Shown piece after piece: positions 139 to 60,430 of a DNA stretch of 64,000 bases. The DNA lies in NCBI GenBank assembly GCA_964567665.1, contig CAZMNN010000010.1, positions 70-64,069 on the forward strand, in the 5' to 3' direction. Position numbers and translations under genes: made by a program. Below the pieces are notes generated by a model. The model searched no databases. It had not been told where the DNA came from and saw nothing but the letters and a program-made list of their open reading frames with translations. Source of the DNA: an uncultured Lentisphaeraceae bacterium. GTDB taxonomy: Bacteria; Verrucomicrobiota; Kiritimatiellia; RFP12; UBA1067. Within the stretch, counting starts at the first letter, position 1; the number at the start of each line of letters is the position of its first letter.

Positions 139-147
139 AAAAAAAAA
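139..147 (+). repeat. A9 homopolymer tract in intergenic region
   Basis: gtgcg-AAAAAAAAA-cataaaac read directly from the sequence. Confidence 0.9.
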
Positions 148-191: not shown

Positions 192-278
192 GTAGATTCA
201 ATTCGTTCAATCTCAATCATGCAGATTTAATTCGCCCGATCTCAATCATGTAGATTCAACTCGCCCGATCTCAATCAT
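192..278. repeat. Three tandem 29-bp direct repeats
   Basis: GTAGATTCAATTCGTTCAATCTCAATCAT (192-220), GCAGATTTAATTCGCCCGATCTCAATCAT (221-249), GTAGATTCAACTCGCCCGATCTCAATCAT (250-278); no spacers. Confidence 0.9.
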
Positions 279-299
279 GCGGAGGATGAAAATTTACAG

Positions 300-327
300 T
301 TGAAAAAAAAAATGGATATGCTACCAT
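300..327 (+). promoter_or_regulatory. Putative sigma70 promoter containing an A10 tract (303-312)
   Basis: TTGAAA (300-305), 16-nt spacer, TG-c-TACCAT extended -10 (322-327). Confidence 0.55.
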
Positions 328-23625: not shown

Positions 23626-23656
23626 TTGACAGTAAGGAAAAAAAAAATGATACCTT
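23626..23656 (+). promoter_or_regulatory. Putative sigma70 promoter with A10 tract (23638-23647) in the spacer
   Basis: TTGACA (23626-23631), 19-nt spacer, TG-a-TACCTT (23651-23656). Confidence 0.6.
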
Positions 23657-23769
23657 TACCGCATTCCGTTTGGGAATGGGTTCGTGAACGGCGGGTGTCG
23701 GGCAGAACCGGGAATGGAATGCGCCGCAGGTTCCGTTCCGCATAATGTATGCGGCAGGAGGATGCAGAC

Positions 23770-26205
23770 ATGAATACCATAAGGTACTTGTTGCGCAAAA
23801 GCGCAGGGCAGACAAAACATTTTTTGGCTGCGTTTGTCGTGGCTATGGCTGGCGTCGCGATGGCGGACGAGACCACTACGATCGGCGGTTACGAATGGAC
23901 GTATAAGACAGCGTTTGAAGAGGTGCAGATTACAGGTGTGTCGCCAAAAAGCGGACGCATTGTGATACCGTTGGATATCTCCGGCCATCCGGTGACGTCG
24001 ATAGGGACAAATGTATTTGCAGGGGCGCTCATCACGTCCGTTGAGATACCTGAAAGCGTGGTGCGCATAGGAGACAGTGCATTTCAGAACTGCTCGAACT
24101 TGACGACGGTAACGTTTGCGGAACTGAGGTTCGACGATGGCCTGGAAGAGATAGGTCAGTATGCGTTCTACGGGTGTAGTTCCCTGAAGTCGATAGAGTT
24201 TCCTGAAAACATCAAGAAGATAGGCCTTCGGGCATTTCAGTCCTGTGATAATCTTCAAGACGTTACGCTGCACAAAAAAGTCGCGGATGTAGGCGACTGG
24301 GCGTTTGCCGATTGCAGCAGCCTGCGGAACATCTCCGTTGCAAAAGGAAACACCAAGTATAGAGATGTCGATGGAGTGCTGTTCACCGCCGACATGAAGA
24401 CGCTCGTAAGCTATCCGGCCGGCAAGACCGACAGGTTCTACACCATCCCCGGCAGCGTAACTGGTCTTCGGTCCGGTGCGTTTCGTGGGTGTGCGCTTGA
24501 GGGTGTTGTCTTTAATTCGCGCATCACGGAGATTGGAAAAGAAACATTTCGTAATTGCAGAAACTTAAAGGAGGTCGTGTTTGGCGAATCCCTGGAGAGC
24601 ATTGGCCTTTCTGCGTTCTTTTCCACCGCGCTGGAGCAGGTCACAGTCCCTCCAAAGGTTGACCGCGTTCTCGTCAATACATTTAAATCCACCTCCGCGT
24701 TCGGGAAGATATTTGTTCACAACAGTTGCACAGACATTAATGACAAGGCATTCACCAACGGAGACGGTACGTATCCAACGGTGTACAGTTATGGTGACGC
24801 TACTGCTGTTAGGGTGAAGTTTGCCCTTTGCGATGCGGGCGATGACATTTCGTATACCCGCGTGGTGGTTGGAGGCGATGAAGTCGGGATTCTTCCGGCG
24901 CCGACATTCGACGGCAAGTTCCTTCTCGGATGGTATACGCAAAGGGCGGAAGATGGCGGAGATAGGGTCTTCCCGGACGAGGTAGTCAACGGTGACAGTC
25001 CCGTCACATACTATGCCCATTGGATAGATGCGCTTGTTGCGGGAATTCCTACAGAGCCGATCGATACCGGGCTTGTCGGCTACACGGTCAAGGGGCTTCC
25101 GTCCGGACTCAAGTACGACAAGAATACCGGCATTGTCTCCGGCACGGCAAAATCCGTTACGTCCGCGAGCGGCACGGTCGCATGGTTCACGAAGAAGGGG
25201 GCGCCGGATGTCCCGATCGCTTTTGTCGTCCGTGCCGAGAACGTGACGGCCAGCTGCGCCGGACTGTCCAGCGGGAACATCACGGTCGGCGTGAACGGTG
25301 GCGTGGACGGCATTCCGGTTAACGTAAGCGCGGAGACGGATGTGCGCTCTGTGTCTGTCAAGGGATTGCCTTCCGGCATGAAATACGATGCGAAGAGCGG
25401 CAAGATTGTCGGCGCACCGACGAAGTCCGGAACGTTCACAGCGACGGTCACGGTCACCACGAAGGCCGGAACGAAGATGACCAAGGAGTTCTCGTTCACC
25501 GTCAAGGCGGTAAATCCAAGGGCGGTCGGCACGTTCAAGGGCTATGTCTGCACTACGACGTCGGTAGACCCCTTTGGTGCTCTTACATATATGGGGACAG
25601 TGCAGTTCACGTCTACAGACACCGGGAAACTTTCTGCAAAGGTGGTGACGGCACAGGGTGCCTACTCCTTCTCGGCTACCGGTTGGGATGCCGTGACGAA
25701 CAAGAAATACTATGTAAGCTTCACGACGAAGAAAGGTGCCGCATTTGCGTTGGAGTTGGATGCCAGCATGGCGTTGAACCGCTTCATGATATACGGCGAG
25801 TTCACGCCGGGCGATGGAACGCCGACGCGTCCCGTTGCGGCAGTCGGCAATGTATTTGCGCGGAATTGGTATTTCAAGGTTGATGCAGACCATGACATAG
25901 ACTCCACCGACATTTATGACCTGAAACGCACGTACGATGCGAAATCCGCCGATCTGACGGTGACACTCAAGGGTGACGGCACGGCCGCAATCAAGGGCAA
26001 TGTGCGTCAGTTCAAGGTGAGCGCATCTGGATTCGCCAACCTTTTTTACGCCCAAGACGGAATCCTGATCGTTTTTACGCCGACGGTGTCTTTGCGCGAC
26101 ATTGGCAATGTTGTGAAGAAGTTTCCTCTTGCCATACAGACGTATATTCCGTACAACGACAACGAGGGCGATATCGCCGGTGGTGTAAGGTTTGTGGCGG
26201 AATGA
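23770..26205 (+). CDS. Surface protein: BspA-type leucine-rich repeats, InlB-B/Flg_new-like repeat, putative Ig domains
   Basis: SVEIPESVVRIGDSAFQNCSNL-type LRRs; LPAPTFDGKFLLGWYT; two VKGLPSG[LM]KYD..G.I.G repeats; SD AGGAGG before ATG 23770. Confidence 0.88.
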   Translation: MNTIRYLLRKSAGQTKHFLAAFVVAMAGVAMADETTTIGGYEWTYKTAFEEVQITGVSPKSGRIVIPLDISGHPVTSIGTNVFAGALITSVEIPESVVRIGDSAFQNCSNLTTVTFAELRFDDGLEEIGQYAFYGCSSLKSIEFPENIKKIGLRAFQSCDNLQDVTLHKKVADVGDWAFADCSSLRNISVAKGNTKYRDVDGVLFTADMKTLVSYPAGKTDRFYTIPGSVTGLRSGAFRGCALEGVVFNSRITEIGKETFRNCRNLKEVVFGESLESIGLSAFFSTALEQVTVPPKVDRVLVNTFKSTSAFGKIFVHNSCTDINDKAFTNGDGTYPTVYSYGDATAVRVKFALCDAGDDISYTRVVVGGDEVGILPAPTFDGKFLLGWYTQRAEDGGDRVFPDEVVNGDSPVTYYAHWIDALVAGIPTEPIDTGLVGYTVKGLPSGLKYDKNTGIVSGTAKSVTSASGTVAWFTKKGAPDVPIAFVVRAENVTASCAGLSSGNITVGVNGGVDGIPVNVSAETDVRSVSVKGLPSGMKYDAKSGKIVGAPTKSGTFTATVTVTTKAGTKMTKEFSFTVKAVNPRAVGTFKGYVCTTTSVDPFGALTYMGTVQFTSTDTGKLSAKVVTAQGAYSFSATGWDAVTNKKYYVSFTTKKGAAFALELDASMALNRFMIYGEFTPGDGTPTRPVAAVGNVFARNWYFKVDADHDIDSTDIYDLKRTYDAKSADLTVTLKGDGTAAIKGNVRQFKVSASGFANLFYAQDGILIVFTPTVSLRDIGNVVKKFPLAIQTYIPYNDNEGDIAGGVRFVAE

Positions 26206-26293: not shown

Positions 26294-26296
26294 GAT

Positions 26297-26325
26297 TTGC
26301 AAACGCAATGCCGCTTTGCTATAAT
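26297..26325 (+). promoter_or_regulatory. Sigma70 promoter
   Basis: TTGCAA-17 nt-TATAAT with TG extension. Confidence 0.7.
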
Positions 26326-26371: not shown

Positions 26372-29300
26372 ATGACCTTCAGAAAAAAAAAATGCATTTG
26401 CTGCAGTCGTAATTGCAGTTGTCTCCTGTGGTGTGTTTGCCGCTGAAGGCGAACGCCCGCAGAACCTCATCAAAAACCCCCGGTTCGAAGGGGAGATTCA
26501 GAGGCCGTGGAGCCTTGTCAAAGGCGTAGTCCGGAAGGAGACCGCCGCATTGAGCGGCGTGTGGATGCTCTCGGCGCTCGGCAAGAACTATTTCATCGTC
26601 AACTACATGGATGACCCTGACCTCAAATGGGAGGCGGGGGAGGAGTTCACCATTGCGTTGGATGTGCGCAGCAGGGGAGCCGGCTCCACGCTTATGGTCA
26701 TCCACCGCTACACCGCCGCCAACGGTGGCGTAGGAGAGGGATGGGCGACGAGGATTCAGCCTACGGCGGAATGGCATGAATACATCATACCGTTTCGCGC
26801 CACTTCTGGCGGGCAGCCGCGTGGTTTCTCGTTCTTCAAGATCGACAACGGCGCACATGACACAGGCATAGAGATCCGGTCGTTCAAGATGTATCGCGGA
26901 CGGATATCGGCCCTTGATTTCGTTCCGGTCGGGCGAAACGCGAGAGCCGGTGTGCTTGAGGGGGCTGCCATTCCGATGAAACAGAACCTGTTCGGGGTCG
27001 CGGCAAAACCACTGAAGGTTCTTGCGGTCGTTCCGTCGCTCACGTCAGTGCGTGAGGCGAAGCACGTATTCGCCGGCACGGGTGCGGAGGCCCACGTCAT
27101 TGTGGCGGAGGGAAAGGGTGCGAACTCGTTCACGACGGATGACGATTCCAAGAGGATCAGGCATCTCCTCATGACGGGCGGATACGATCTCTATGCATTC
27201 GGCCGCAGATCCGCCGCCGCGATCGGGGAGGAGCTGTTCGCAATCATCGAGACGAACGTCCTGAACGGGGCTTCGGCGTTTTTCGCGCCGACCAGGGATG
27301 GTCAGGCCGGGCTGTTTAACAAGATGCACTCGTCCGCAGCATCCGGCAGATACGGTCGCGGGCGGGTGACGGCGGCAAAGTGGAGAAGGGACGTTGATGG
27401 CGTCGCCGGCGGAAGCGACCTGTCGTTCATCGACAATTCGCCGCTTGCGGATGAATATGCAATCGCATCATTCCCGTATGAGGAGATTGAATTCGCGAGG
27501 ACTGCGGACAGGCTTTGGAAAGCGGCGTTCGGCGCTCCGGATGTTTCGGCGGCGAAAAAGGTCACGGAAGAGAACATATATCGCGGCAAGGTGCATGGCG
27601 TGGAGCGGTATCTGGATTCGAGCGGACGGACGCTTGCGTTCAGTTGCCGGGAGAGTCCGGTGTCCGGCGCATCGCTCGGAGAGATGGTCGACGGCGGCCG
27701 CGAAGTGGTGATACCGGTTTCAAACGGTACGGAGTCGGCAATGCTGAAATGGCGGTTCAGCGATTTCTCCGGACGCATTTTCGGCGAGGGCAGCCAGCGA
27801 GGCTCTTCACGGGTGACGATCGCAGTTCCGCGAGAAAAACTGTATACAGGCCTCGGCGTCCTGGAAACTGAACTTGTCGATGGCGGCAAGATGGCCGACC
27901 GGCGCAACTTCATGGTAATTGAACCGTCGAACGACAGAAAGCGGATGATCGGGGATTACGGCGTGGGATTCTGGTCTGTGTCGTCCGCATATGCCCGCAT
28001 GGACAGGCGAGACATGGTTCGGGCGCTCGGGGAATTGGGGTTCAGGTATGCGTTCTGCCACGGCGGATGGGGCGACATGTACACGAGCGGCATGGCCGCA
28101 ACGCTGTCATACGTAATCGGTGGCGAGTATTTCAGCGGCGGACCGACCTCCGTGAACAATGTGCGTCGCCCAGTGTTCAACACAAAGGAGGCTCGCGGCC
28201 GCATACGCGAGATGGCAACCAGGTGGGCCAAGGAAAACAGACGCCATGGCGGGATGTACGGGTCGTTCTCCGATGAGGCAAGGCTCGGCCCCAACGGGGA
28301 GGAGGTTGACGCCCACCCGGAGAACATAGAGACGTATCGTCTTTGGATGGAACGCAAATACGGGACGATCGAGGAGTACAACCGCAGACATCTCACATCC
28401 CACCGGTCGTTTGCAGACCTCGGTCAGACATTGCTCAAGGATGCGCGGGCGGCGGGCAATGCGGCGGAGTTCATCGAGTGGCGCACATTCAACGTCGACC
28501 GCTGGGTGGAGGTGATCCGTGAAGTCGGCGACGCTATCCGCGAGGTCGATCCGGACGTGCTGTATTCATTAGACAACTGCTTCGGCGAGCGGGCGCTTGG
28601 CGGAACGGACTTCTGGAAGCTGCTGTCCAAGACGGGGCTGGACTACTCGAAGGAGTACACCGCATCGGTCTCGTTCGGCGAAGATCCATTCCATGAGTTC
28701 GATTTCCTGTACCGCTCGTGGCGCCCGGATATGCGCATATGGGGATGGACCGGGTACGGGTTCACGGAAGAGCGTGAGCGCGCTCTCCCGTGGATGACCG
28801 CACTGCACCGTCAGGGTGGCTTCCACTGGTTCGCGGCGACATATTACGGAATCAATCTCCTTGATCTCGTCACGGGCGCACCGACGCTTGATGCGCGTGA
28901 ATGCGGCAGGAACCTTGCCATGACGCGCATGGCGGATGGTCTGGGAAAGACGCTGGCGGACTGGAGCTGGGCGAAGGGCGATGTCGCCATCTACTATTCG
29001 CACGACTCCTGCATCCTTTCGTTCTTCCTCGGAACGGAGACGCTCCGCGACGACTGCCACAAGGGATCGCCATACTGGAATTTCCAGTATTCACGCAGCA
29101 ACGCGAACTTCATGCTGAACCATCTGTTCTACCAGCCGGAATGGGTTTCTCAGGAGCAGGTTGAGGGTGGGTTCCTGAATGGCGGCGACTGGTCTGTGTA
29201 CCGGGCCGGCAAGGTTGTGACCGGACAGCCTCCGTTCAAGGTGCTCATCATGCCGCACATCCTTGCCATGACCGACAGGGAGGTGGCAGCCGTGAAAGCG

Positions 29301-30059
29301 TTCATCAAGCGCGGCGGGAGGGTCGTATGCGATGTCCTGCCCGGCGAATACGACGAACTCGGCGTGAAGCGCAAGGTGCCGCCATTTGCCGAAGACGAGG
29401 TGGATATGTTTGCGACGGCGTTCGATTCAGGTGATGAGGGGCAGAAGCGTCGGATGCTTGCGCTGCTGAAATCGGCGGCGGTCACGCCAGCGATCGAGTC
29501 CCCCACCGCAATTTCCAATCCGTACCGTGAGGCAGTGCACTACCGCGAGGGGGACGTGGATCTCTACGGTGTCATCAGAAAGCCGCAACATTCGCTTGTC
29601 GGCAAGGAGCATGACGACAACGTCGATGAGCTTGTGTTCGCGAAGCCGGGACACATCTACGATGTGCGGAGCCACAGGTATCTTGGCGTTTCCGACCGCG
29701 TTTCGGCATCCGTTCCGTACGCGGAGGCCAGCCTGTATGCCGTGCTGAAGGAGAAGATCGACGGAATTGAAGTCACAGGTCTGCCGCGTTGGCTTTCATG
29801 CGCCAGGCGCGGAGAGACGCTCGCCTTGGACTTCAAAATCATCTCACGTGACGTGACGCCATGCTATGTCCTGCACATAGAGTTCGTTCCGCCATCGGGG
29901 AAGTGTCCGTTTCATTTCAAGCGCAACGTCGCCACTGCGGAAGGTAAGGCAAGTCTCCTGTTCCCGTTGGCGCTCAACGATGAAACAGGCAAGTGGACTT
30001 TGCGCATCATTGAGCCGTTGACCGGAGTCTCTGCGGAAAGGACTTTCACCGTGAAATGA
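26372..30059 (+). CDS. Large secreted GH42-like/beta-galactosidase-type protein with N-terminal CBM-like domain; start frameshifted at A10 (26383-26392)
   Basis: ORF track 26433..30059 lacks a signal peptide; ATG 26372 joined with A9 gives MTFRKKNAFAAVVIAVVSCGVFA-AEGERPQNLIKNPRFE; GH42-like WIEWRTF and trimerization-like FKVLIMPHILAMTDREVAAVKAFIKRGGRVVCD. Confidence 0.7.
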
Positions 30060-30144: not shown

Positions 30145-33100
30145 ATGTTTTGCAGAACGCATATGCTTACGGTAGCGTGGACGGTTGCTGTTGCAGGCCT
30201 GTTCGCCAAAACCAACGAGGTCGGCGACGCATGGGCGCTTCAGCTTTCGAACGGAGATGTAGCCGCAGCCGTCTCGACATCGATTCCAGAAATCCTTCCC
30301 GATGTAGGAACTCCGATATTCCATCTTGACGCATCGCAGACGAATGAATGGACGATCGACGGGGGCATGGTTAGCCGAATACCGTCTCTCGTCGGCAGTC
30401 GCTACCTCGTTTCGGGTGAGGGCAAATACATCCATGAGCTGTCGAAGCGGGATGAGGCCAATGGATTGTGGGACGCAAGCGATTATTGGCAGCTCAAACT
30501 GCCGCAGGTTGCGCATGATGAGGACATTTACGCCGCAGTGCTTGACTTTGGGGCGCTTGGATCGCGCATGGCGATGCTGTTCGACTACGAGAACGACCTT
30601 GATTCCGGCATGAGCCAGCCGACAAACGTCCTTCGCGGAATCGGCACGGTCGTTGCCGTGTGGCGGCAGACCGGAGGTGCGATCCTTGGCGGAGGGGTGG
30701 GATTGAATGGTGGCGGAGACTGCAACGGCCAGATGTGGGTGCGCGGAACATCGATGAATTGCGAGAGCGAGACGATTGCATCGCTGCGGACAACGAACCC
30801 CGACTGCTCATCGCCGCTTCTGTGGTGTCCGGGATCGCCCACTGGCGGCTACAACAACATGGCGTTCAATCCGGCCTTGAACGGCATATCGCGGGAAAAC
30901 GGCATCCCCGCCAACACTTGGCTCACAGGGCGGACGGCGGATTGGACAGTTACCTCGCTTCTGCCCACAAACAACCTTGGAAACTCAAACGGATTGGGGC
31001 TTGGCATTGTGCGACAGAACGAATCGAAGCTTTCAGGCGGCCTGAAAATCGCCGAGATGGTCATTTATGGCGAGACGCTTGACGTGTTCAGGGTGAAGCA
31101 GGTTGAGGATTACCTCGCGAAGAAATGGCTTGGACGCAGCAGATACGGCACAGACGGCAGGTCTCGAATGCTGTCGGTTGCCGGACATTCAAAGGAGAAG
31201 TCCCGCAACGGTGTCAGGACGGAGATAAACGTGCCGGATGGCGCGTCGCTTGAACTGGGGGAATATGCCGGCGGACGCGGAACAGGCGTCTCTATCGATA
31301 AGACCGGCAACGGCGTACTGTCGGTTTCGGATCTCCGCAACTACCCCGGAAGGCTGGCGATAAAGGAGGGAACGTTGCGCTTCGGCGGACGCCACGCCGC
31401 CACGGCGATACCGGTTGCGCCGTTTCTCCACTTCGACGTCTCCGAAAGCAATTCCGTGACCACGGAGACGATAGATGGCGTAAAGTATGTGAAAAGGATG
31501 GCCAACATTGCCGAATCGTCGTATCGCGGAGAGCGCATATCGGCAAAGGCGGGCGAGAGTCCAAATCCGCCGCCTGTCCTCGTGGAAGGTGTTTTCACCG
31601 CCGCAGACGGCTCTCAGATGTCCGCCGTCAATTTGCTTGAAGACAGAAGGTTCGGCACATCCGCCGAAACGTCGGGAGCATACTTCCGGTTCGTCAATTC
31701 AAAGGACGAGGGCCTAAGCATAGACGGATTGACCACGGTGATAGCAGTGGTGAGTCCGGGAGCGAAAGGCGGTACACTCCTCGGAAACGTCCGTTCATGC
31801 GCGGCAGACCCGTCGGCGACGTATTCCACGGGATGCTATTTTGACCGCGATCAGGACACCATAGCATCGTGGAGTTCATATGCCGCTCCGCTTCTCGGCA
31901 CGAAACCGTTCGCCAGAATACACCCGACGCTTGTGCCGACGAACGGCATCGTGATGATAGACGGCGTGAAGAGGGATGTCCGCGCCGGATATGACAGACA
32001 GGGCTTTCAGGTGGTGGCGCTTCAGGTTCCGGGATCGTGCGTATCCTCAATCGGAGCCTCGTTCAATTCGGCATACGCCGGAGGATTCATGTTTTCGGAA
32101 ATCGCAATATACAGCCATCCGCTGTCTGAAGAGGAGTTGCGCGACGTTTCCGCATACATGAGCGCGAAGTGGCTTGGGTGCTCCATTCCGGGATATCTTT
32201 CCGCTTCCGGCATGGCGTCGCCGCCGATCGTGCAGGATCTGCTGCTTGAGGACGGAACCACCGTGGACGTTCCGTCTGGCATGGTCGCCCGCGTGAGGCT
32301 TGCGGACTTTTCGACTTCGTTCACGAAGACGGGCGGCGGTTCGCTTCAGATCGAGAATCCTTCCAACATAGCGCTTGTCGGCGCCAAACTGCGGGAAGGC
32401 ACAATCGACTTCATCGCTCCGCTCGACCATGACGCCGAAAGCGGCTACGCCGTCTCTCCGTCGCTCCATCTCGATGCGGATGAAACGAACCGCATGGATT
32501 TCGCCTCTGACGGCAAGACGGTAAAGGCGTGGTATGACATCCACCGGCGCGACGGAGTGTCCGCATTTGCCAACGTCGGCTATCCCGCTCTCATCGCGGC
32601 GGCCTGCACCAACAGGCAGAGGAAGATACACAACGCCGTCACGTTCGGCGGATTCCGGTCCGGTGCGCGCGCCGAACTGCTGCGTCCGCTCCACGGAGTG
32701 CGTTCGGCATACATTGTCGCCGCAAGGGGCGCCGCCAATGCCCATATAGGCGCATTGCTCGGGACGGCCTCCGCTTTCTGCAACGGAAGCGGCAGCCCGG
32801 ACGAGGATGTCGTAGACTTTTTCTACGGGACCGACAGCAACGGGTGGCCGAGCAGTCCGTTTTCCCCGGTGCCGTCGAAAGGCGCGACCGTAAGGTACAA
32901 CTGCGGCGAGACGCTGTACTTCACGAACGGCGTGTCTGTCTCGGCGGCGCAGAACGTATTGCCGCCGACGGACGAGTTCGACTACCGTCTGTATGAAGTG
33001 CATCTTCCTGTCGGTGCGCACGTCTCTGCGCTTTGCGGCATCGGAACGAGCCCGAACTACAGCGGCGGATGGAGATACGGTGAGATACTTCTTTACGAGC

Positions 33101-34617
33101 GCGAACTGAGCGAACGCGAGAAGGTCGCGACGCGCAACCATCTCGCAAGGAAATGGCTTGGCGTCGCGGATGAGGGGCTTTCGCCGCTTCCGGAACCCGC
33201 GCCGCAGCCGGATCAGTGCGTATTGGCAAACCTTGACGTGGAGGACGGTGCGTCGATGAGCGTGCAGGAGGGAAGAACGCTCACGTATGGACAGATTGTC
33301 GGCACAGGCGATTTCGCAAAGGTCGGGGGCGGCACTCTTGCGGTGAACGACATCGTCGGATTTACCGGCACCGTATCTGTTGCGGAGGGCGCTTTCAGGA
33401 TTTGCCATGCTCTGCCGCCGGAGGAGCCTGCGATGCCGGATGCCTCCAAGGGGCTTGCAGTCCATCTTGACGCCTCACGCGCTGATACGATGTCCATCTG
33501 CGAAAGCAACGGCACGATGTACGTCAACGAATGGAGAAGCCTCACGGGGAACGGCATGAGGGCGGTGCCTCGCGGCGGAGACGGAAAGACAATGCTGGTC
33601 TCCCATGCGGATCTCAGGAATTCCATGGATGCCGTCAAGATGCCGGACAACGAATCGTCGATGGTCTTCAAGGATGCCGAAGGGAACCGGTTTTCCGTCA
33701 CGAACGTGTTGAGCGTCCTGTGGGTGCTTGGTTCGCATGATGGCGGCGGCACGATTCTCGGCAACGAATTTGCGAATCCGAAGAGCGGGAGCGCAAACGG
33801 ATGGTTCCGTGGGGCGCAGACATACGGCATCCGGCCGGAGGACTTCCTCATCTACAGCGGTGCGTGCGCCGGGGTGCGTACGGCGGAGTTCTGCATAAAC
33901 GACAGGCGACTTTCGGCAGGTACGCAGCTTTGGCCGGAAGGAGTGACGGACGCAACTCCGCTCAATACGGGATTGTCCGGCGGCTGGGATTTCATCAGCT
34001 GTCGCGTCCATGAGGGAACGTACGCGAATGCCGTAAGTGCGGATTCGCTCGCCTACAACTCCACTGCATCAGGTGCGCGTTCCGGTCATCAGCGCCTTGC
34101 CGAGATTCTCATATACACAAACATGCTTACGGCGGCGGAGTGCCGTCGTGCCGGATATGCCATGCGGGCGAAGTGGGGGCTTGAAAGGTGGCAGCGTTCC
34201 ATGTCGAATGCGGTGCACATGGTGGTTGGCGCAGATGCGGCGCTTGATCTGGGCGGCACCAACCAGTACCTGAACGCCATAGGTGGCGCCGGCCGGATAG
34301 TGAACGGCAACCTTTCGGTAAGCGGCATGGACTGCGATTTCGCCTCCACGGGCTGTTTGGAGATGGAAGGGACTCTGACCGTGGGCGATGGGTTCACCCT
34401 GAACCTCATGAACGTGGACGCGGTTCTCGGCGGATTCGCGGATCTGACGATACCGCTTATCCGTGCATCGATGGTGGTTGGAGCAGAGAACCTTTCACGC
34501 TTTACGGTGAAGGGCGAGGAGCTTCCGAAGTACGTGAGAGTCCGTCTGCGGGCAGGGAAGAATGGCGAGGTGGTCGCCCGCTTCTTCGGGACAGGGCTTA
34601 AGATACACGTCTTTTAA
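30145..34617 (+). CDS. Giant secreted protein with four LamG/ConA-like modules and beta-strand repeats; C-terminal GLKIHVF
   Basis: AGGAG SD, ATG 30145; four H[LF]D...KW modules joined by K[TV]G[NG]G.L repeats. Confidence 0.85.
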   Translation: MFCRTHMLTVAWTVAVAGLFAKTNEVGDAWALQLSNGDVAAAVSTSIPEILPDVGTPIFHLDASQTNEWTIDGGMVSRIPSLVGSRYLVSGEGKYIHELSKRDEANGLWDASDYWQLKLPQVAHDEDIYAAVLDFGALGSRMAMLFDYENDLDSGMSQPTNVLRGIGTVVAVWRQTGGAILGGGVGLNGGGDCNGQMWVRGTSMNCESETIASLRTTNPDCSSPLLWCPGSPTGGYNNMAFNPALNGISRENGIPANTWLTGRTADWTVTSLLPTNNLGNSNGLGLGIVRQNESKLSGGLKIAEMVIYGETLDVFRVKQVEDYLAKKWLGRSRYGTDGRSRMLSVAGHSKEKSRNGVRTEINVPDGASLELGEYAGGRGTGVSIDKTGNGVLSVSDLRNYPGRLAIKEGTLRFGGRHAATAIPVAPFLHFDVSESNSVTTETIDGVKYVKRMANIAESSYRGERISAKAGESPNPPPVLVEGVFTAADGSQMSAVNLLEDRRFGTSAETSGAYFRFVNSKDEGLSIDGLTTVIAVVSPGAKGGTLLGNVRSCAADPSATYSTGCYFDRDQDTIASWSSYAAPLLGTKPFARIHPTLVPTNGIVMIDGVKRDVRAGYDRQGFQVVALQVPGSCVSSIGASFNSAYAGGFMFSEIAIYSHPLSEEELRDVSAYMSAKWLGCSIPGYLSASGMASPPIVQDLLLEDGTTVDVPSGMVARVRLADFSTSFTKTGGGSLQIENPSNIALVGAKLREGTIDFIAPLDHDAESGYAVSPSLHLDADETNRMDFASDGKTVKAWYDIHRRDGVSAFANVGYPALIAAACTNRQRKIHNAVTFGGFRSGARAELLRPLHGVRSAYIVAARGAANAHIGALLGTASAFCNGSGSPDEDVVDFFYGTDSNGWPSSPFSPVPSKGATVRYNCGETLYFTNGVSVSAAQNVLPPTDEFDYRLYEVHLPVGAHVSALCGIGTSPNYSGGWRYGEILLYERELSEREKVATRNHLARKWLGVADEGLSPLPEPAPQPDQCVLANLDVEDGASMSVQEGRTLTYGQIVGTGDFAKVGGGTLAVNDIVGFTGTVSVAEGAFRICHALPPEEPAMPDASKGLAVHLDASRADTMSICESNGTMYVNEWRSLTGNGMRAVPRGGDGKTMLVSHADLRNSMDAVKMPDNESSMVFKDAEGNRFSVTNVLSVLWVLGSHDGGGTILGNEFANPKSGSANGWFRGAQTYGIRPEDFLIYSGACAGVRTAEFCINDRRLSAGTQLWPEGVTDATPLNTGLSGGWDFISCRVHEGTYANAVSADSLAYNSTASGARSGHQRLAEILIYTNMLTAAECRRAGYAMRAKWGLERWQRSMSNAVHMVVGADAALDLGGTNQYLNAIGGAGRIVNGNLSVSGMDCDFASTGCLEMEGTLTVGDGFTLNLMNVDAVLGGFADLTIPLIRASMVVGAENLSRFTVKGEELPKYVRVRLRAGKNGEVVARFFGTGLKIHVF

Positions 34618-49720: not shown

Positions 49721-49747
49721 TTGAAAAAAAAATCAATATGGTATATT
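49721..49747 (+). promoter_or_regulatory. Putative promoter with A9 tract (49724-49732)
   Basis: TTGAAA, 15-nt spacer, TG-g-TATATT; perfect palindrome GATGAATTCATC at 49702-49713 just upstream. Confidence 0.55.
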
Positions 49748-49845
49748 CATCGCCGTTTTCACGGTTGTTCTGCTTGCTCGACAAGTGCGGTGCTGGATGA
49801 ACTGAACGTGAAGCGCTTATGTCCACAAGTCACGGAGAGATTGTA

Positions 49846-52800
49846 ATGGATTCAAGAAAATGGCTGTCTGCGGCGGTGTTGGCTTTGGCGGCCGCTGCCG
49901 TCTATGCGTACGACGCCGAGTTTATTTCGCCAACAGGCTACTTTGTGCCCGGCTGGCAACTGGGGCGCTGGAAGGACATGGCAACTGGCACGACGCCGTC
50001 CGCGCTTCCCACGAGCCGCGTCGACAACGTGCATTTCGGCGAGCCGTCCAATTCGGCCTGGCAGCCATCGGTCTACACGGGAACGGGCAATGACTTCGGA
50101 AGTTTCCTTCCGGTTGAACTGAATGTGCTTCACGGCAGCGAGGCGTGGACGCTCGTGAATTCGCCGGAGCAGACGTCGGTGACGGCGCAAGGTTCCGACA
50201 AGCGCGTGACGATTGCGGATCCGACGGGATTTGACGGCTATTTCTTCAATGGATATGCACGTGTAGGGTGGAGTTTCCCCGGAAACGCCGGGGCGACGCA
50301 GCGCGTCTCGTCCGTTTCGCTGCGATGCCGCCCAATCGTCGAGACGCCGTCACAAGGGACATCAGTTGCCGTCGACGACTTCTACTCCGCCGGTGCCTTG
50401 GAGAAGTGGGGCGCGGGCGAACTTGTGGTCAACGGCACGTCCGGTGCGCATACGCGCCTGTACGTAAAGGACGGCGACGTGTCGTTTGGGGATGGAATTG
50501 CCGACGACCTGGACGAAATCCTCGATGCCGCGTTTCTGCATCTCGATGCAACGGCAGCCGCAACCTTGAAGACGACCTCAAACGGAGACGGGCGAACGTA
50601 TGTCACAAACTGGTGCGACGTGCGCGGCAACGGGCAGGGTGCGCATGTGCCGTTGCCGTCCGAGATGGTTTCCGGGTACGAGAAGATCCAGTCCGCGAAC
50701 AGTCCGTTTCTTGCCGTCGGCGCGGGACGAAAAGGACAGAACATGATCGACTTCGGGACGGCTTGGACGCCGGACAGCGGAACGCGATTCGGCCCGACGA
50801 ACTGCACGATGCGCTTTGAACGCCGTGAGGACGTGCGCGACGTGTTCTATGTGGCGCGCTACCACGACAGGCCGCAGTTCAACCCCGTGCTGGGCGACTG
50901 GGTCTCCGCGCCGACGCTGCAGCCGTGCGCCGGACTGCTCGGCGGCAGCGCCAACTGGGGCGCACGAACTGGTGCGATCTTCGCCGACGGCGTGAAGGTC
51001 TTGCCGAACCACTACCCGGACAGCGGCTACGGATTCACGAACCAGACCGTGTACTCGTTCAGCTCGAAGTCCAACCTCGTCCTTTCGGCAATCGCGTCCG
51101 ACCAGGATCGGCCGTTTGCTGGAACGCTGCCCGACGCAGCGCAGGCGCGGATCGGGGGAATGCTTGTCGGCGAGATCCTGCTGTTCACGAATGAACTGAC
51201 GCGGGCGCAGCGCAACCGCGTCAACGCCTACCTCGTCGACAAGTGGCAGGGTCCGTCCGGCGAGGTGTGGGCGGATGTCGGCTTACTTGACATCCAGAAG
51301 GACGGGGCGTCCGTCAATGTGGCGCCGGGCACAACGGCGACCGTGCTCGACCTCAAGTCCGGCGGCGTCGTGACAAAGACCGGCGGCGGAACGCTTGCGG
51401 TCGATGCCGTCTATCCGCAGGACACGACTTTTGACGTCAAGGGTGGCAGTGTGCGGATCGGCGGACTGGTTTCGTCCGTGGACGACCAGGCGCCGGCATC
51501 CAGTCCGGCGGTCTGGTTAGATGCTTCGTGTTCAGGATCGCTGGTGAAGGAGACGATCGACGGAAGCCCGTACGTGACCCGATGGAACGACAGGCGCGGA
51601 AACGGAATCTACGCCACGGCCTCGGTTGAAAAGGGCGCACCGCGCATTCCGACGGAAGTCAAGGCGGCGACGCCGACGGGGCTTGACGTGCTTTCTCTTG
51701 GCGGAAACTCGTCGACGAGTTCATATTTTGCGTTCCCGTGGCGGAGTGCATCGAACGGGACAAAGAAATTCTACGCCGGCTTTGCGGTTCTTCGCCGCAC
51801 GGCGGGGAGCGACACGGCGTTCGGAATCTTCGGCGCGGCCGACATGACGTTCATGTGCGAGGGCAGCGAGGGCGGCACTCATCACCGCTTCATCTCCGAG
51901 AAGTACACCTGCTCCGCGACGTCGGCGGCAATCTGGACGTATAATGGTGTTCCCCGCGATCCGATTGTCTATCACGCCGATATGTCCGACATGTCAAACT
52001 TCTTTGTCGTGGCGTTCGCCGCCGAAGAGAAGGTGCTGGTTGACGCGATCGCCTGGAACCGCAACAGCCCGAACTACTGCGGCGGGATGGAGATCGGCGA
52101 GTTCATCCTGTACGACCGGCCGGTTTCGGATGCGGAACGCCGCTGCACGGAAGCGTACCTGATGAAAAAGTGGAATGGCGCGGCCCATCCCGCATCGGGG
52201 ACGCCCAAGCCGAACTACGCATTTTCCGAAGACGTCGACGCCATTGTTGACGTGGCGGACAACTGTGCGCTCGGCACGGTGTCCGGCGGTTCGGGACGCT
52301 TCGTCAAGCGCGGGTCCGGAAATGTCTCGCTCTCTGCGGTTCCAGACGGGACGGAGTCGCTTTCCGTGGAGGGCGGGACGCTTTCACTGTCGCTGTCTTC
52401 ATTCATCGATGACTCGCTCTACCACTTTGACATGACCGCCGAAGACACGTTGGAATACGGCGAATCGCCTGATCAGGGAACTGTCGTAATGCGTTGGAAT
52501 GACGTGCGCGGCAATGGTGTCTATGCCGAGGCGGTTAAGCCGGGAGATGCGGCGGACAAGGGCTACACGAAGAAGTATCCCGTTGTCACCGAACTTTCAA
52601 CCGAAGGCGTTGTTAGGAGATACCTTGATTTTGGTGGCGTCAACAGTGCCAATTCGGCCGCAATGTGGATGAACCGGAATTTCATGAACGTGCGCGAAGT
52701 CCATGTGATTCACAGGGACATCGGAAAGAACTCCATGTTTGCATCCTTCTCCGAGCGCAACACCAATGCTGTGCACAGTACATGGGAGGATAGTCAGCGT

Positions 52801-56076: not shown

Positions 56077-57543
56077 ATGAAAAAAATGACATTTGAAAAG
56101 TTGGTGCTGCTGTCCGTTTCGGCGGCGGCTTTCTGTGTCCCCGCATTGGGGTTTGACGTGTCCGTGTGGCGAGGAGAGACATTCTCGACGCTCGTTCCGG
56201 ACAACGTGGAGCTTGGCGAATCGCCCAAGGGGATAGACGTAAGGCGCGGATCGCTGCGGCCGGTCAAGTATCGTCCGTCAGCAGACAGCCTTCATTTGAA
56301 CGAATGCTACGATCGCGTGGACTGGGATGCGGCGTCCGGCGGACCGGTCGTTGCGGAGATAACCGTCTCGCGTGACACGAAGCCCGGCGTATACAGGTGC
56401 GGCGGCATGAACGTGCGCGTTGTGGATCGGGTGCTGCCGCCTGCGAAGGAGTGGAAGTACTATCTCGATCTCTGGCAGCATCCGTGGTCGGTGGCGCGCA
56501 TGGCGAACGTCGAGCCGTTCTCCAAGGCGCACTATGCCGCGATGCGTCCCGTGTGGGAACTTCTCGCGACGGCCGGACAGAAGGCGCTCACCGTCACGCT
56601 GCTCGACAGGCCGTGGAACCACCAGTGCCGCGACGCATACGGCACCATGGTCGCAAGCCGGAAGGACGCTGACGGCAAGATGACGTTTGACTATTCAATC
56701 TTCGACGAATACGTCGAGTTCGGGCGCAGCTGCGGCATCGGCCCGCACATCGCCTGCTACACGATGTGTCCGTGGGGGAACCGCGTTGGCTGGATCGATG
56801 CGAACGGCAATAAGGTCGAGGTCGTCGCCAAGCCCGGCACGAAGGAGTTTGAGGATTTCTGGGGGCCGTTCCTTGAGTCGTTCACTGCGCATCTGAAGGA
56901 GAAGGGCTGGTTCAACGACACGCTGATATCGATGGATGAACGTGCGCCGGAGGACATGAAGATCATCGCGGACTTCATCCAGTCACGCGCTCCGGGGATG
57001 AAGATTGCGCTTGCCGGCAACAGGAAGCCGAGCGAGTTCAAGGGGATAACCCTTGACAGCTACTCGCAGTACGTCGGGCACATCACCGATGATTTTCTTG
57101 CGGAGGTGCCGGAACGCAAGGCCAAGGGATATGTGACGACGCATTATGTGTGCTGCGGCCCGAACCGTCCGAACACGTTCCTTTCGTCGCCGACGGCCGA
57201 GAACTTCTGGGTGGGCGTGTATCCCGGCATGGTTGGGCTTGACGGACTTCTCCGCTGGGCGTGGAACAGCTGGCCCGAGAATCCGGTTGCGGATGGCTCG
57301 TTCGGCAACTGGCGCGCGGGAGACGTGTTTCTCGTGTATCCCGGCGCGGCTCCGTCGTACCGCTTCCTCGAACTCCGCAACGGCATTGCGACGGCCGAAA
57401 AGCTGCGCATCCTCAAGGAGCAGGGGCTTTTCAAGGATGACATCGCCGCTCTCGCAAAACGCTACAACTGCAAGGATGCGCTGGAGGGCAAGGCCAACGT
57501 CACGAAGCTGCGGCAGGATGCGCTGGAGCTCGTGAATCGCTGA
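56077..57543 (+). CDS. DUF4091/GH123-like glycoside hydrolase (beta-N-acetylgalactosaminidase-like)
   Basis: YYLDLWQHPWSVAR, ISMDERAPEDM, DGLLRWAWNSWPENP, GDVFLVYPG...SYRFLELRNGI; signal peptide from ATG 56077. Confidence 0.75.
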   Translation: MKKMTFEKLVLLSVSAAAFCVPALGFDVSVWRGETFSTLVPDNVELGESPKGIDVRRGSLRPVKYRPSADSLHLNECYDRVDWDAASGGPVVAEITVSRDTKPGVYRCGGMNVRVVDRVLPPAKEWKYYLDLWQHPWSVARMANVEPFSKAHYAAMRPVWELLATAGQKALTVTLLDRPWNHQCRDAYGTMVASRKDADGKMTFDYSIFDEYVEFGRSCGIGPHIACYTMCPWGNRVGWIDANGNKVEVVAKPGTKEFEDFWGPFLESFTAHLKEKGWFNDTLISMDERAPEDMKIIADFIQSRAPGMKIALAGNRKPSEFKGITLDSYSQYVGHITDDFLAEVPERKAKGYVTTHYVCCGPNRPNTFLSSPTAENFWVGVYPGMVGLDGLLRWAWNSWPENPVADGSFGNWRAGDVFLVYPGAAPSYRFLELRNGIATAEKLRILKEQGLFKDDIAALAKRYNCKDALEGKANVTKLRQDALELVNR

Positions 57544-58146: not shown

Positions 58147-60430
58147 ATGGTTGACGCTTGGAGTGCTGTTTCAGAAGGGATTTTTAGGAAAAAAAAAATC
58201 ACTTTGTGCATCTGTCGCGTGTGTTCTGGCGGGCGGCATCTTTCTGACCGCCGACGCTGAGGACTGGAAGATCGATTCGGTGGACGATCTCACGGCGGCG
58301 CTTTCGCAAGCGGCTTCGGGTGATGTCCTGCTGCTGAATCCGGGGGTCTATGATCTCGCCGGAACGGAAATGGATGAAGAGGGGCATTCGCATCTTGTTG
58401 TGGATAGGCCTATAGAGATGCGCTGCACGGACGGCTTGTCCTGGCGCACGGCATCAGATGGCCTTTCGGGCGCAGTTCTGAAGGGCGGCAGTTCGATGCG
58501 CATTCTGCGTGTCAAGACGGCAGCATCATTCAGTGGCATATCCTTTGTGGACGGAAAGACGTCAGATGACGGCGCCGGCGTATGGATAGATGTCAGCGGC
58601 ACCAGCGACGTGGTCAACTTCACGAATTGCGTGTTCAAGGCCTGCCGCAGTGAAAATGGAGATGGTGGAGGCATCTGTTCGCCTTATTCTGCGACGGCCG
58701 TTGCTCGTGATTGCCGGTTTGAAGGCAACGAGGCGCAGAAGAACGGTGGCGGCGCAATGAAGGGGTTCTATTACTCCTGCGTCTTCTCCAACAACGTGGC
58801 TGTGGCTGCCGGGGGCGGGGCGGTTTCAAGCGGGGAGATGACGGATTGCGTGTGCGGCGGCAACAAGGCGAAGTGGGGCGGCGCAGGGAGCTACGTAACG
58901 GCATCCCGCTGCACCTTCACCGGAAACAGCAGCGGCATTGTCGGTGGAGCGATGTCCAATTCTCACGCAACCGATTGCGCATTTGACGCAAACGTCTCCG
59001 ATGACAAGGGGGGCGCTCTTTACAGCGATGGACTGTATAAGGTGCGTGGATGCACGTTTGCTCAAAACCGCGCGAGGACGAACGGCGGTGCGATATGTGG
59101 TGGACACGCAGTGAGCAATTGCTCGTTCTACGGCAATTCCGCCGCGAATGGCGGTGCGTTGTACGGTGTGCGGACAGCATCGTCTCTATTGGCGGTGCAG
59201 CCGGTTGCGGTGATGGATTCCAGTTTCCTCACAAACACCGTGTCCGGAAGCGGCGGCGCAGTCGCAGAGTGTGACGTTGCATCCTGCCTGTTTGAGGGCA
59301 ATGAAGCGGATAAAGGCGGAGCAGTCACGCAGTCCACGCTTGTGGACTGCGAACTGATTGGCAACAAGGCGAACACCTATGGCGGCGCCGCCTATGAAGT
59401 GGAGACTTGCCGGGATTGCACTTTTGCAGGCAATTCTGTAGTCAGATATGATGGAGGCGCAATCTACCAGACCAAGGCGGGTGCAATCCTTTCCGGATGT
59501 GAGATTGCGAGCAACAAGGTGGTTGGTGCATATCGAAACGGTGGCGGCATATTTTGCACAGCCGGAGGCAGTTCCATGCTCGTCACGAACTGCCTCATCA
59601 TGGCGAACAGTGCGGAGGGGACATCCTCCGCAGGTGGCGTATATGGGGCGACGAATGTAGTCGGCTGCATCTTCCGCGACAACACAAGCGGCTTCTATTC
59701 GGGTCACGCATGGTACTCCGCCTTTCGCGACTGCCGATTCACCGGAAAGGGCGAGGTCGCGATGAGCCGCCTCTACAACTGTGAACTTTACGGCTATCGT
59801 GCGAACAAAGATGACTATTCTGCGCCGCTTGTCGCCAACGAGAGGGAAGAATGGCGGAAGGAGAGTGGATTTCCGGTATTTGAGGCGGTGAATTGCCTTT
59901 TCCGGGATTTGTCCTGCGATGCCATAGTCCGAGTGACCGGTGACGAGGCATACTTCTACAACTGCACGTTCGCCAGCAACGTGTGCGAGAATTCGTTCCG
60001 TCTTCTGCAGGGGAACAATGCAAAGGAGCCGTCGCTGAACGTGGCCAATTGCGTGTTTGGCGGCAACCGCGCAAAAGATGGCGCAGCTGCGGGCGTAAAG
60101 GTCAGCATCGGGTTCACTCCGGTTGCGGCGGATGTGTCGCTCAGTAACGTTCTTTCGGAGGGATACGATCTGCCGTCTTCAATCGGCGCTTCGCAGACAT
60201 CCGGACTTTTGACCGGAGCCGTTCGATTCTGCGGTGATGACAACTTCTGGAACGAACCTGCCTATGCGCTTCGTCCATCTGGGCGGTGGGTGGATCGGGG
60301 CGTGGCCCTGCCATGGTCGGCGGATGCGGTCGATCTCGCAGGACGTCCGCGTGTGCGCGGTAAAGGCGTAGATCTCGGCTGCTATGAGTTTCAGTCCATG
60401 CTGCCAGGCATGAAGATATCCATTCGTTGA
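58147..60430 (+). CDS. Secreted beta-helix protein with GGA[IVL] (Pmp-like) repeats, choice-of-anchor-Q-like tail and C-terminal GMKISIR; start possibly frameshifted at A10 (58189-58198)
   Basis: Many N.A..GGA[IVLM] repeats; DLAGRPRVRGKGVDLGCYE; AGGAG SD 7 nt before ATG 58147, which is in frame only with A9; in-frame TTG 58151 is an alternative. Confidence 0.8.

What the first reader, a model, noticed from the sequence alone, without database searches (positions are those of the whole stretch)
26372..26446. A10 frameshift disconnects a textbook signal peptide from a 1200-aa glycosidase
Seen: behind a good promoter, ATG ACC TTC AGA AAA AAA AAA TGC... stops after 24 aa (TGA 26444). Removing one A gives MTFRKKNAFAAVVIAVVSCGVFA-AEGER..., continuous with the long ORF. 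The long frame has a stop at 26373 and no ATG before GTG 26433, which would lack the signal peptide. Inference: a phase-OFF allele, or expression through transcriptional slippage or +1 shifting on the Lys codons after an AGA codon. It could be polar on the 30145 giant protein.
Basis: partly seen in the sequence, partly recalled or inferred. Interest (0 to 1): 0.7.

Follow-up and report, generated by a model that had tools for sequence, protein, structure and literature searches.

The report
Variable poly-A tract switches secreted enzyme gene
A run of ten A's just after the start codon puts a large secreted, glycosidase-like protein of an uncultured gut bacterium out of frame, and because related strains carry nine A's (in frame) here and at five similar runs nearby, this looks like ordinary slipped-strand phase variation in a bacterial group where I found no report of it.

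Summary
ATG 26372 is followed by A10 (26383-26392). That frame stops at TGA 26444. The 1208-codon frame has TGA at 26373 and no start before GTG 26433. With A9 the product reads MTFRKKNAFAAVVIAVVSCGVFA|AEGER..., a Sec-type signal peptide.

It is not an assembly error. Eleven independent public runs give A10, and one related strain gives A9.

It is not a dead gene. The frame is intact in three species, with dN/dS about 0.1. The hydrophobic segment upstream of GTG 26433 is conserved only in the long frame.

The same tract is A10 in every assembly I read of a sister species (92% aa). In a third species (81% aa) it is A9 or A10 among strains 99.4-99.6% identical, where the tract is the only indel in 4.4 kb.

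The window holds six A9/A10 tracts (0.013 runs of 10 or more A or T expected). They lie in promoter-like sequence or at 5' coding ends of + strand genes, and all six differ in length between strains.

Best reading: slipped-strand phase variation, with this allele OFF or low. Within-clone switching, and rescue by RNA polymerase slippage, could not be tested because only contigs were available. "Glycosidase" rests on a weak GH42 match.

The parts
26296..26325 (+). Sigma-70-type promoter match: TTTGCA, 18 nt, TG-TATAAT
   Evidence: 10 of 12 matches, TG before the -10 hexamer. Conserved in species B.
26372..26374 (+). ATG start codon of the gene. No obvious Shine-Dalgarno sequence upstream.
   Evidence: The orthologue with A9 (L003) starts at the equivalent ATG and reads MRNMRKKNAF.
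26383..26392 (+). Poly-A tract, A10 in this allele. It spells the n-region (AG)A AAA AAA AAx. A9 is in frame, A10 is out of frame.
   Evidence: A9 in X20. A9 or A10 in species C. A10 in species B.
26372..26446 (+). 24-codon abortive ORF produced by the A10 allele (MTFRKKKCICCSRNCSCLLWCVCR*)
   Evidence: Its residues are not conserved in species B when the DNA is read in that frame, so it is a by-product of the shifted frame.
26391..26441 (+). Signal-peptide h- and c-region in the long frame (NAFAAVVIAVVSCGVFA). Predicted cleavage is VFA|AE.
   Evidence: Conserved as a hydrophobic segment in species B and C only in this frame. The cleavage site is inferred from the -3/-1 rule.
26433..30059 (+). 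Mechanical ORF (GTG start) of the 1208-aa mature part: a distant GH42-like protein
   Evidence: Pfam GH42 at 21.1 bits against a cut-off of 21.0, matched by 14 of 14 family members. The only distant relatives carry GH42 and GH42M domains. dN/dS 0.09-0.12.
30145..34617 (+). Next gene (1490 aa, own AAGGAG Shine-Dalgarno sequence and its own signal peptide), probably in the same operon
   Evidence: No promoter or terminator match in the 85-nt gap between the genes. The gap is only 13 nt in species C.
23638..23647 (+). A10 tract between TTGACA and TG-A-TACCTT, upstream of the BspA-type LRR gene (promoter-spacer position)
   Evidence: A9 in X20, X31, X17 and X8. A9 in species B.
58189..58198 (+). 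A10 tract in the 5' coding end of a beta-helix / Chlamydia-PMP-repeat protein. ATG 58147, which has an AAAGGAG Shine-Dalgarno sequence, is in frame only with A9.
   Evidence: P0016 (99% identical, from other strains) begins MVDAWSAVSEGIFRKKKSLC, which is the ATG-plus-A9 product. One base shorter at the tract in X20 and two shorter in X17.
303..312 (+). A10 tract inside the promoter match TTGAAA, 16 nt, TG-TACCAT, upstream of the gene starting at ATG 369
   Evidence: A9 in X8.
49724..49732 (+). A9 tract between TTG(AAA) and TG-TATATT, upstream of the gene starting near 49819-49846
   Evidence: A10 in X20 and X31. The spacer is 15 nt with A9 (no promoter match) and would be 16 nt with A10 (inference).
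139..147 (+). A9 tract in non-coding sequence; role unknown
   Evidence: Three bases shorter in X20, X17 and X8. The X31 contigs break at the tract, with an eight-A and a six-A version.

Best explanation
The A10 run is a hypermutable homopolymer of the contingency-locus type. It spells the positively charged n-region (Arg-Lys-Lys) of a Sec signal peptide. Slipped-strand mispairing during DNA replication moves it between A9 and A10. With A9, ATG 26372 is in frame, and the full preprotein is made and exported. With A10, translation from ATG 26372 ends after 24 codons, and the 1200-aa body has no upstream start and no signal peptide. The window carries the OFF (or low) allele. The same device is used at several neighbouring genes for large secreted or surface proteins, either in the 5' coding end or in promoter-like sequence, so a population would carry a mixture of expression states. 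Shown here: the anatomy; tract-length polymorphism confined to the tracts; recurrence in separate species; purifying selection on the gene; and atypical codon spelling that preserves the run. Inferred: slipped-strand mispairing as the mutational mechanism; reversibility within a clone; loss of export and expression in the A10 state; and some leakiness of the OFF state through RNA polymerase slippage on the run.
For: 1. Frame anatomy.
2. Tract 26383 is A10 in the window and ten runs and A9 in X20.
3. Species C has A9 alleles (L003, L004; 1228-aa product MRNMRKKNAF...) and A10 alleles (L011-L015; 1217 aa called from an internal ATG). They are 99.4-99.6% identical, and the tract is the only gap in 4.4 kb.
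4. Species B carries A10 at the homologous site in L001, L002, L005 and L016.
5. dN/dS is 0.094 between the window and species B, both A10, at dS 0.42. It is 0.117 against species C at dS 1.0. There are no internal stops.
6. The 16 codons between the tract and GTG 26433 change conservatively (hydrophobic for hydrophobic) or synonymously only in the long frame.
7. There are six A9/A10 runs in 64 kb against 0.013 runs of 10 or more A or T expected. All are A on the + strand, upstream of or inside the 5' ends of + strand genes.
8. All six vary in length between strains, in different combinations. The other indels in the two longer stretches, about 12 kb, were 3-nt insertions or a 15-nt cluster inside coding sequence. 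In the first 700 bases there were also a 1-base insertion at 125 and a 29-nt repeat-copy loss.
9. Lys is AAA in only 20% of cases and Arg is AGA in about 6%, yet AGA AAA AAA AAx is kept in three species.
10. A second gene (58147) shows the same A9-in-frame, A10-out-of-frame relation to its start codon, which has a Shine-Dalgarno sequence.
11. Precedent: the 5' poly(A) tract of Listeria monocytogenes inlA, and the general 5' bias of poly(A)/poly(T) tracts (PMC2831843).
Against: No raw reads were available, so mixed tract lengths within one population, the defining behaviour of phase variation, were not seen. The A9 and A10 alleles compared also differ by some SNPs (0.4-2%), so they are different strains, not one clone. 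OFF (A10) predominates in all three species: 11 of 12 assemblies, 4 of 4, and 5 of 7. This could mean that A10 is itself an expressed state. An RNA-library contig (X16) carries A10 and tiles the operon, but it also covers intergenic DNA, so DNA carry-over cannot be excluded. Whether this organism has mismatch repair is unknown, and so is its actual switching rate.
Confidence: 0.75

Rival explanations
1. Programmed recoding. A10 is the designed state. The protein is made at a set low level because RNA polymerase slips on the run, giving transcripts with 9 or 12 A's, or because ribosomes slide +1 on the lysine codons. This would resemble Citrobacter rodentium tssM1 or Thermus thermophilus dnaX.
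For: A10 is the majority state in all three species, while the ORF stays under purifying selection. Runs of 9-11 A are documented slippage sites: the A11 run of tssM1 gives transcripts with 10-15 A and about 20% frame restoration (PMC4256274). A +1 slip, an A9 transcript or an A12 transcript would each give a normal signal peptide (read).
Against: In-frame A9 alleles exist in species A and species C, so the out-of-frame arrangement is not fixed. The same tracts also occur in promoter-like sequence, where recoding has no meaning, and they vary in length there too. There is no canonical +1 stimulator: the 0-frame codon after the run is UGC, UGU or AUC, and the AGA precedes the run. The RNA-library contig consensus is A10, although contigs drop minority variants.
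Confidence: 0.15
2. Translation starts at GTG 26433 in the A10 allele and makes a cytoplasmic, signal-less enzyme. The tract would then switch the protein's location rather than its expression.
For: GTG 26433 opens the mechanical ORF. Gene callers used it, or nearby internal starts, for A10 alleles: P0053, P0001, P0059 and P0067.
Against: GTG 26433 lies inside the signal-peptide h-region. No Shine-Dalgarno-like sequence precedes it. The internal start chosen differs between species (GTG, TTG, ATG), so no internal start is conserved. All orthologues, including distant ones, have N-terminal signal peptides.
Confidence: 0.05
3. A decaying pseudogene, or a sequencing or assembly error at a homopolymer.
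For: A frameshift in a homopolymer is the commonest assembly artefact and a common route of gene inactivation.
Against: A10 is reproduced in contigs of ten independent runs from several studies, at depth up to 38x. The same assembler returns A9 where that is present. X20 is not simply compressing homopolymers, because it shows one extra A at 49724 and an unchanged A10 at 303. dN/dS is about 0.1, with no further stops over 1220 codons in three species.
Confidence: 0.04

Closest known systems
Listeria monocytogenes inlA 5' poly(A) tract (Orsi, Bowen & Wiedmann 2010, PMC2831843)
   Same: A poly-A run a few codons after the start codon of a gene for a secreted or surface protein. A one-base change gives a very short truncated product. 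The frameshift has arisen more than once. Poly(A) tracts are generally biased toward the 5' ends of genes.
   Different: The run is longer here (A9/A10). The organism is a high-GC (59%) uncultured gut bacterium of the PVC group, not a Firmicute pathogen. It is one of several such tracts clustered in one 64-kb region. Switching frequency has not been measured here.
Classical contingency loci: poly-G/C tracts of Campylobacter, Neisseria, Haemophilus and Helicobacter; poly-A tracts in the 5' coding end of Mycoplasma hominis vaa and in Mycoplasma vlp promoters (the Mycoplasma cases are from my own knowledge and were not checked here)
   Same: Homopolymers sit in the 5' coding ends and in promoter spacers of several surface-protein genes. 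Each locus has its own ON or OFF state. Tract length differs between close strains.
   Different: The host is a gut commensal-type bacterium assigned to Lentisphaeraceae/Kiritimatiellae. The target is a large CAZyme-like operon rather than a known adhesin, LOS or capsule gene. Reversibility within a clone is not shown.
Transcriptional slippage genes: Citrobacter rodentium tssM1 with an A11 run (PMC4256274); Thermus thermophilus dnaX with an A9 run (from my own knowledge)
   Same: A run of 9-11 A in coding sequence, with the downstream frame displaced by one base. Slippage would restore the frame.
   Different: In those genes the run is fixed and gives two functional products. Here in-frame alleles coexist with out-of-frame ones, the short product is only 24 aa and is not conserved, and RNA heterogeneity has not been measured.
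Glycoside hydrolase family 42 (beta-galactosidases)
   Same: A weak Pfam GH42 match in all 14 family members and a GH42M match in 4 of them. The only distant relatives carry GH42 and GH42M domains.
   Different: The score is at the threshold (21.1 against 21.0 bits). There is no sequence match to any solved structure. The protein is about twice the length of typical GH42 enzymes and is secreted. Catalytic residues were not verified.

Membership tests
Slipped-strand (simple-sequence-repeat) phase-variable contingency locus | A homopolymer long enough to be hypermutable, placed in the 5' coding region or promoter | tested here: met
   A10 lies 11 nt after the ATG. About 0.013 runs of ten or more A or T are expected in the window.
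Slipped-strand (simple-sequence-repeat) phase-variable contingency locus | Tract length differs between closely related genomes while the flanks are nearly identical | tested here: met
   A9 or A10 in species C at 99.4-99.6% identity, with the tract as the only gap. A9 in X20 against A10 in ten other runs.
Slipped-strand (simple-sequence-repeat) phase-variable contingency locus | Length changes toggle between a full-length and a truncated product | tested here: met
   A9 gives the 1228-aa preprotein (P0002, P0072). A10 gives a 24-aa product.
Slipped-strand (simple-sequence-repeat) phase-variable contingency locus | The gene is otherwise intact and under purifying selection | tested here: met
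   dN/dS 0.09-0.12 and no internal stops in three species.
Slipped-strand (simple-sequence-repeat) phase-variable contingency locus | High-frequency, reversible switching within one clonal population | not testable with these tools
   All runs are held as contigs only. Contigs drop minority variants.
Slipped-strand (simple-sequence-repeat) phase-variable contingency locus | Several such loci per genome, mostly at genes for surface or secreted proteins | tested here: met
   Six tracts in 64 kb. Genes beside them include a BspA-type LRR protein, this GH42-like protein, a PMP-repeat/beta-helix protein and two large proteins without Pfam matches. All six tracts are polymorphic.
Programmed transcriptional slippage (recoding) gene | The out-of-frame arrangement is fixed across strains and orthologues | tested here: not met
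   In-frame A9 alleles occur in species A (X20) and species C.
Programmed transcriptional slippage (recoding) gene | mRNA is heterogeneous in run length relative to the DNA | not testable with these tools
   Only an RNA-library contig consensus (A10, X16) is available.
Programmed +1 ribosomal frameshift (prfB / Ty1 type) | A slippery P-site codon followed by a stop or rare A-site codon, often with an upstream Shine-Dalgarno-like stimulator | tested here: not met
   The codon after the run in the 0 frame is UGC in the window, UGU in species B and AUC at 58189. AGA or AGG precedes the run. No Shine-Dalgarno-like element was seen.
Glycoside hydrolase family 42 | GH42 catalytic domain above Pfam's gathering score | tested here: inconclusive
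   21.1 bits against a cut-off of 21.0, over a partial match (profile positions 148-263 of 376). 14 of 14 relatives match weakly, best E-value 3.5e-5.
Glycoside hydrolase family 42 | (beta/alpha)8 barrel fold with the acid/base and nucleophile Glu residues | tested here: inconclusive
   The AlphaFold2 model of residues 470-1060 had mean pLDDT 44.7, so it was not used for a fold search. No PDB sequence match.
Pseudogene | Relaxed constraint and further disabling mutations | tested here: not met

The most novel reading that the evidence does not exclude
A10 is not simply 'off'. In this clade the out-of-frame length is the preferred state, and expression of this large secreted enzyme operon depends on RNA polymerase or ribosome slippage on the lysine run. 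DNA-level length changes would then act as a coarse gear (A9 high, A10 low, A8 or A11 none), and the same poly-A device would be used genome-wide in both promoters and signal peptides of an uncultured gut PVC bacterium.
Probability: 0.2. Interest if true: 0.6.

Novelty: new member of a known kind. Interest (0 to 1): 0.45.

Why it matters
Homopolymer contingency loci are textbook biology for mucosal pathogens. In two full-text searches I found no paper linking them to Kiritimatiellae, Lentisphaerae or Victivallis. Here a cluster of poly-A tracts sits beside genes for very large secreted or surface proteins: a GH42-like protein ahead of a gene with a GH95-like domain, a BspA-type LRR protein and a PMP-repeat protein. 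If the switching is real, individual cells of this gut organism stochastically vary which proteins of these classes they display. That bears on how uncultured gut specialists cope with phage, immune pressure or changing glycan supply. There is also a practical point. Gene callers truncate such genes or start them at internal codons: the same gene appears as 1208, 1211, 1217 or 1228 aa in public protein sets. Signal peptides are therefore lost from annotation.

Tried and rejected
- Raw-read pile-up. No run holding this sequence is kept as raw reads, so within-sample heterogeneity and RNA-versus-DNA tract lengths could not be measured.
- Exact-pattern scan of JGI metagenome contigs for the tract with its flanks. 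No hits.
- Protein-guided scan of the same collection. It gave only two distant, partial orthologues.
- Genome-collection scan. It gave one close and two distant MAG loci. The one distant orthologue whose 5' end I read (L006) has an ordinary signal peptide and no poly-A tract.
- Function of the protein. A profile search of PDB sequences found nothing. The AlphaFold2 model of the putative catalytic part was too poor (pLDDT 44.7) to justify a fold search. A profile search of the protein database added only two distant relatives.
- Pseudogene and assembly-error readings. Rejected on dN/dS and on reproducibility across runs.
- prfB-like +1 frameshifting. Rejected for lack of any stimulator.
- A function for the 24-aa Cys-rich peptide. 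Rejected: its sequence is not conserved between species A and B, and its cysteines are the by-product of reading GCx/GTx-rich signal-peptide codons out of frame.
Full report
**1. The observation**

- ATG 26372 is followed by ACC TTC AGA and a run of ten A at 26383-26392.
- In the ATG frame the product is MTFRKKKCICCSRNCSCLLWCVCR*, ending at TGA 26444.
- The long frame has TGA at 26373. It reads PSEKKNAFAAVVIAVVSCGVFAAEGER..., and its first possible start is GTG 26433. The ORF runs to 30059, 1208 aa.
- With nine A's the ATG joins the long frame and gives MTFRKKNAFAAVVIAVVSCGVFA|AEGER. This has a positively charged n-region, a 16-residue hydrophobic core and a V-F-A cleavage motif. The cleavage site is my reading by the -3/-1 rule. 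A lipobox-like VVSC is also present, but the Cys is not conserved in distant orthologues.
- A promoter match lies at 26296-26325: TTTGCA, 18 nt, TG-TATAAT, 10 of 12 matches.

**2. Not chance and not an artefact**

- The window is 59% G+C. About 0.013 runs of ten or more A or T are expected in it. It contains four A10 and two A9 runs.
- In the window's genes Lys is AAA in only 20% of cases, and AGA makes up about 6% of Arg codons. The spelling AGA AAA AAA AAx is therefore strongly atypical.
- Logan contigs of ten independent public gut-metagenome runs from several studies carry A10 at this site, at depth up to 38x: X1, X3, X4, X7, X13, X16, X18, X8, X17 and X31. One run, X20, from a strain about 98% identical, carries A9.
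- X20 is not simply compressing homopolymers. It has one extra A at 49724 and an unchanged A10 at 303.

**3. The organism and the orthologues**

The closest genome records are MAGs labelled uncultured Lentisphaeraceae (92% aa) and Kiritimatiellae/Kiritimatiellaeota (71% and 59%). The organism is therefore an uncultured gut bacterium of the PVC group. The protein family is small: 15 close relatives and two distant ones in the protein database.

Three lineages share the tract.
- **Species A** (the window's species): A10 in the window and ten runs, A9 in X20.
- **Species B** (92% aa): A10 in L001, L002, L005 and L016, from at least two studies. The upstream ATG is out of frame exactly as in the window.
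- **Species C** (81% aa): A9 in L003 and L004, giving a 1228-aa product MRNMRKKNAFLMAAIAAVSCGLLA.... A10 in L011-L015, where the gene is called as 1217 aa from an internal ATG. These alleles are 99.4-99.6% identical over 4.4 kb, and the tract is the only gap.

More distant orthologues (59-71% aa) have ordinary signal peptides without a Lys run. L006, the one whose 5' DNA I read, has no poly-A tract.

**4. The gene is alive**

- dN/dS is 0.094 between the window and species B, both A10, at dS 0.42.
- dN/dS is 0.117 between the window and species C, at dS 1.0.
- There are no internal stops over 1220 codons.
- The 16 codons between the tract and GTG 26433 change between species by synonymous or hydrophobic-for-hydrophobic replacements only in the long frame. 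In the ATG/A10 frame the changes are radical (read).

This segment is therefore translated in the long frame. That requires initiation at the upstream ATG and a tract length, or a slip, that joins the two frames.

**5. It is one of a set**

| Tract | Position and context | Window | Other strains |
|---|---|---|---|
| 139-147 | Non-coding, role unknown | A9 | 3 shorter in X20, X17, X8; two versions in X31 |
| 303-312 | Inside TTGAAA, 16 nt, TG-TACCAT | A10 | A9 in X8 |
| 23638-23647 | Between TTGACA and TG-A-TACCTT, before the BspA-type LRR gene | A10 | A9 in X20, X31, X17, X8 and in species B |
| 26383-26392 | This finding | A10 | A9 in X20 |
| 49724-49732 | Between TTGAAA and TG-TATATT | A9 | A10 in X20, X31 |
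| 58189-58198 | 5' coding end of a beta-helix / Chlamydia-PMP-repeat protein | A10 | One base shorter in X20, two shorter in X17 |

- At the last tract, ATG 58147 has a strong Shine-Dalgarno sequence (AAAGGAG) and is in frame only with A9. P0016, the 99%-identical protein from other strains, starts MVDAWSAVSEGIFRKKKSLC, which is exactly the ATG-plus-A9 product.
- The combinations of lengths differ from strain to strain, so the tracts change independently.
- In the two longer compared stretches, about 12 kb, the other indels were 3-nt insertions or a 15-nt cluster inside coding sequence. In the first 700 bases there were also a 1-base insertion at 125 and a 29-nt repeat-copy loss.

**6. Mechanism**

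The best-supported reading is slipped-strand phase variation at a homopolymer. The tract is kept by selection despite codon bias and despite dS of about 1. It changes length recurrently in separate lineages. It toggles the gene between a full preprotein and a 24-aa stub. It is accompanied by similar tracts in promoter-like sequence and in other signal peptides.

Not shown: switching within one clone. All the alleles compared come from different strains, and only contigs were available.

A run of ten A is also a known slippage site for RNA polymerase. The A11 run of C. rodentium tssM1 gives transcripts with 10-15 A and about 20% frame restoration (PMC4256274). The A10 allele is therefore probably leaky, and the predominance of A10 in all three species keeps open the idea that A10 is a deliberately low-expression state. 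Against recoding as the sole mechanism:
- in-frame A9 alleles exist in two species;
- the same tracts lie in promoter-like sequence and vary in length there too;
- no +1 frameshift stimulator is present.

**7. Downstream effects**

The next gene starts at ATG 30145, with its own AAGGAG and its own signal peptide. It follows after 85 nt that contain no promoter or terminator match. In species C the gap is 13 nt. Co-transcription is likely. Polarity of the OFF state on this gene is possible but only inferred. Contigs from an RNA library (X16, A10 allele) tile the whole operon, including the downstream genes. They also cover the intergenic promoter region at similar depth, so DNA carry-over cannot be excluded.

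**8. What the protein is**

- The Pfam GH42 match is borderline: 21.1 bits against a cut-off of 21.0, over part of the profile.
- It recurs in all 14 family members, and four also touch the GH42 trimerisation domain.
- The only distant relatives in the database carry GH42 and GH42M domains.
- There is no sequence match to a solved structure, and the AlphaFold2 model was unusable.

"GH42-like glycosidase" is a reasonable label but is not established. Nearby genes include GH95-like and GH123 domains, a BspA-type LRR protein and a TonB-dependent receptor plug domain. This is consistent with a glycan-degradation and surface-protein region.

**9. Comparison and novelty**

The closest documented analogue is the 5' poly(A) tract of Listeria monocytogenes inlA, together with the general 5' bias of poly(A)/poly(T) tracts (PMC2831843). 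The multi-locus pattern matches classical contingency loci. Two full-text searches found no paper linking Kiritimatiellae, Lentisphaerae or Victivallis with homopolymer phase variation. This is a new member of a known kind, in an unstudied lineage and with a CAZyme-like target. It is not a new mechanism.

**Verdict**

Interest is moderate.

Noticed in passing
window 139-147, 303-312, 23638-23647, 49724-49732, 58189-58198: Five more A9/A10 runs, all as A on the + strand. They lie in promoter-like sequence or at 5' coding ends of + strand genes, and each differs in length between strains.
   Followed up: yes
window 58147-60430: A beta-helix protein with Chlamydia polymorphic-membrane-protein (PMP) repeats. 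Its ATG, which has a Shine-Dalgarno sequence, is out of frame with the body in this allele (A10). Other strains (P0016) have the A9 form. With A10 the body frame is still open back to TTG 58151, so this tract may swap N-terminal extensions rather than switch the gene off.
   Followed up: partly
window 194-280: Three tandem copies of a 29-nt unit (AGATTCAATTCGCCCGATCTCAATCATGC) lie just upstream of the promoter-like site that holds the 303 tract. Strain X8 lacks one copy.
   Followed up: partly
window 24056-24620 (inside the BspA-type LRR gene, 23749-26205): Contigs of X8, X17 and X31 break here or run on into unlike sequence, and X8 has 35 differences in 535 nt while its flanks are nearly identical. 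This looks like a hypervariable or recombining LRR segment, or an insertion in some strains.
   Followed up: no
window 56430-57380: Many contig joints, skips and doubled depth appear in several runs, within and just after the GH123 gene. This suggests a repeated or multi-copy segment.
   Followed up: no
window 26372; L001, L003: This gene has no recognisable Shine-Dalgarno sequence before its ATG in any of the three species. Neighbouring genes (369, 23770, 30145, 58147) have clear GGAG-type sites.
   Followed up: no
public protein sets (clusters of P0001, P0002, P0016): The same gene is called as 1208, 1211, 1217 or 1228 aa (and the 58147 gene as 755-760 aa), depending on tract length and on the caller's choice of internal start. 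Signal peptides are therefore lost from annotation.
   Followed up: yes
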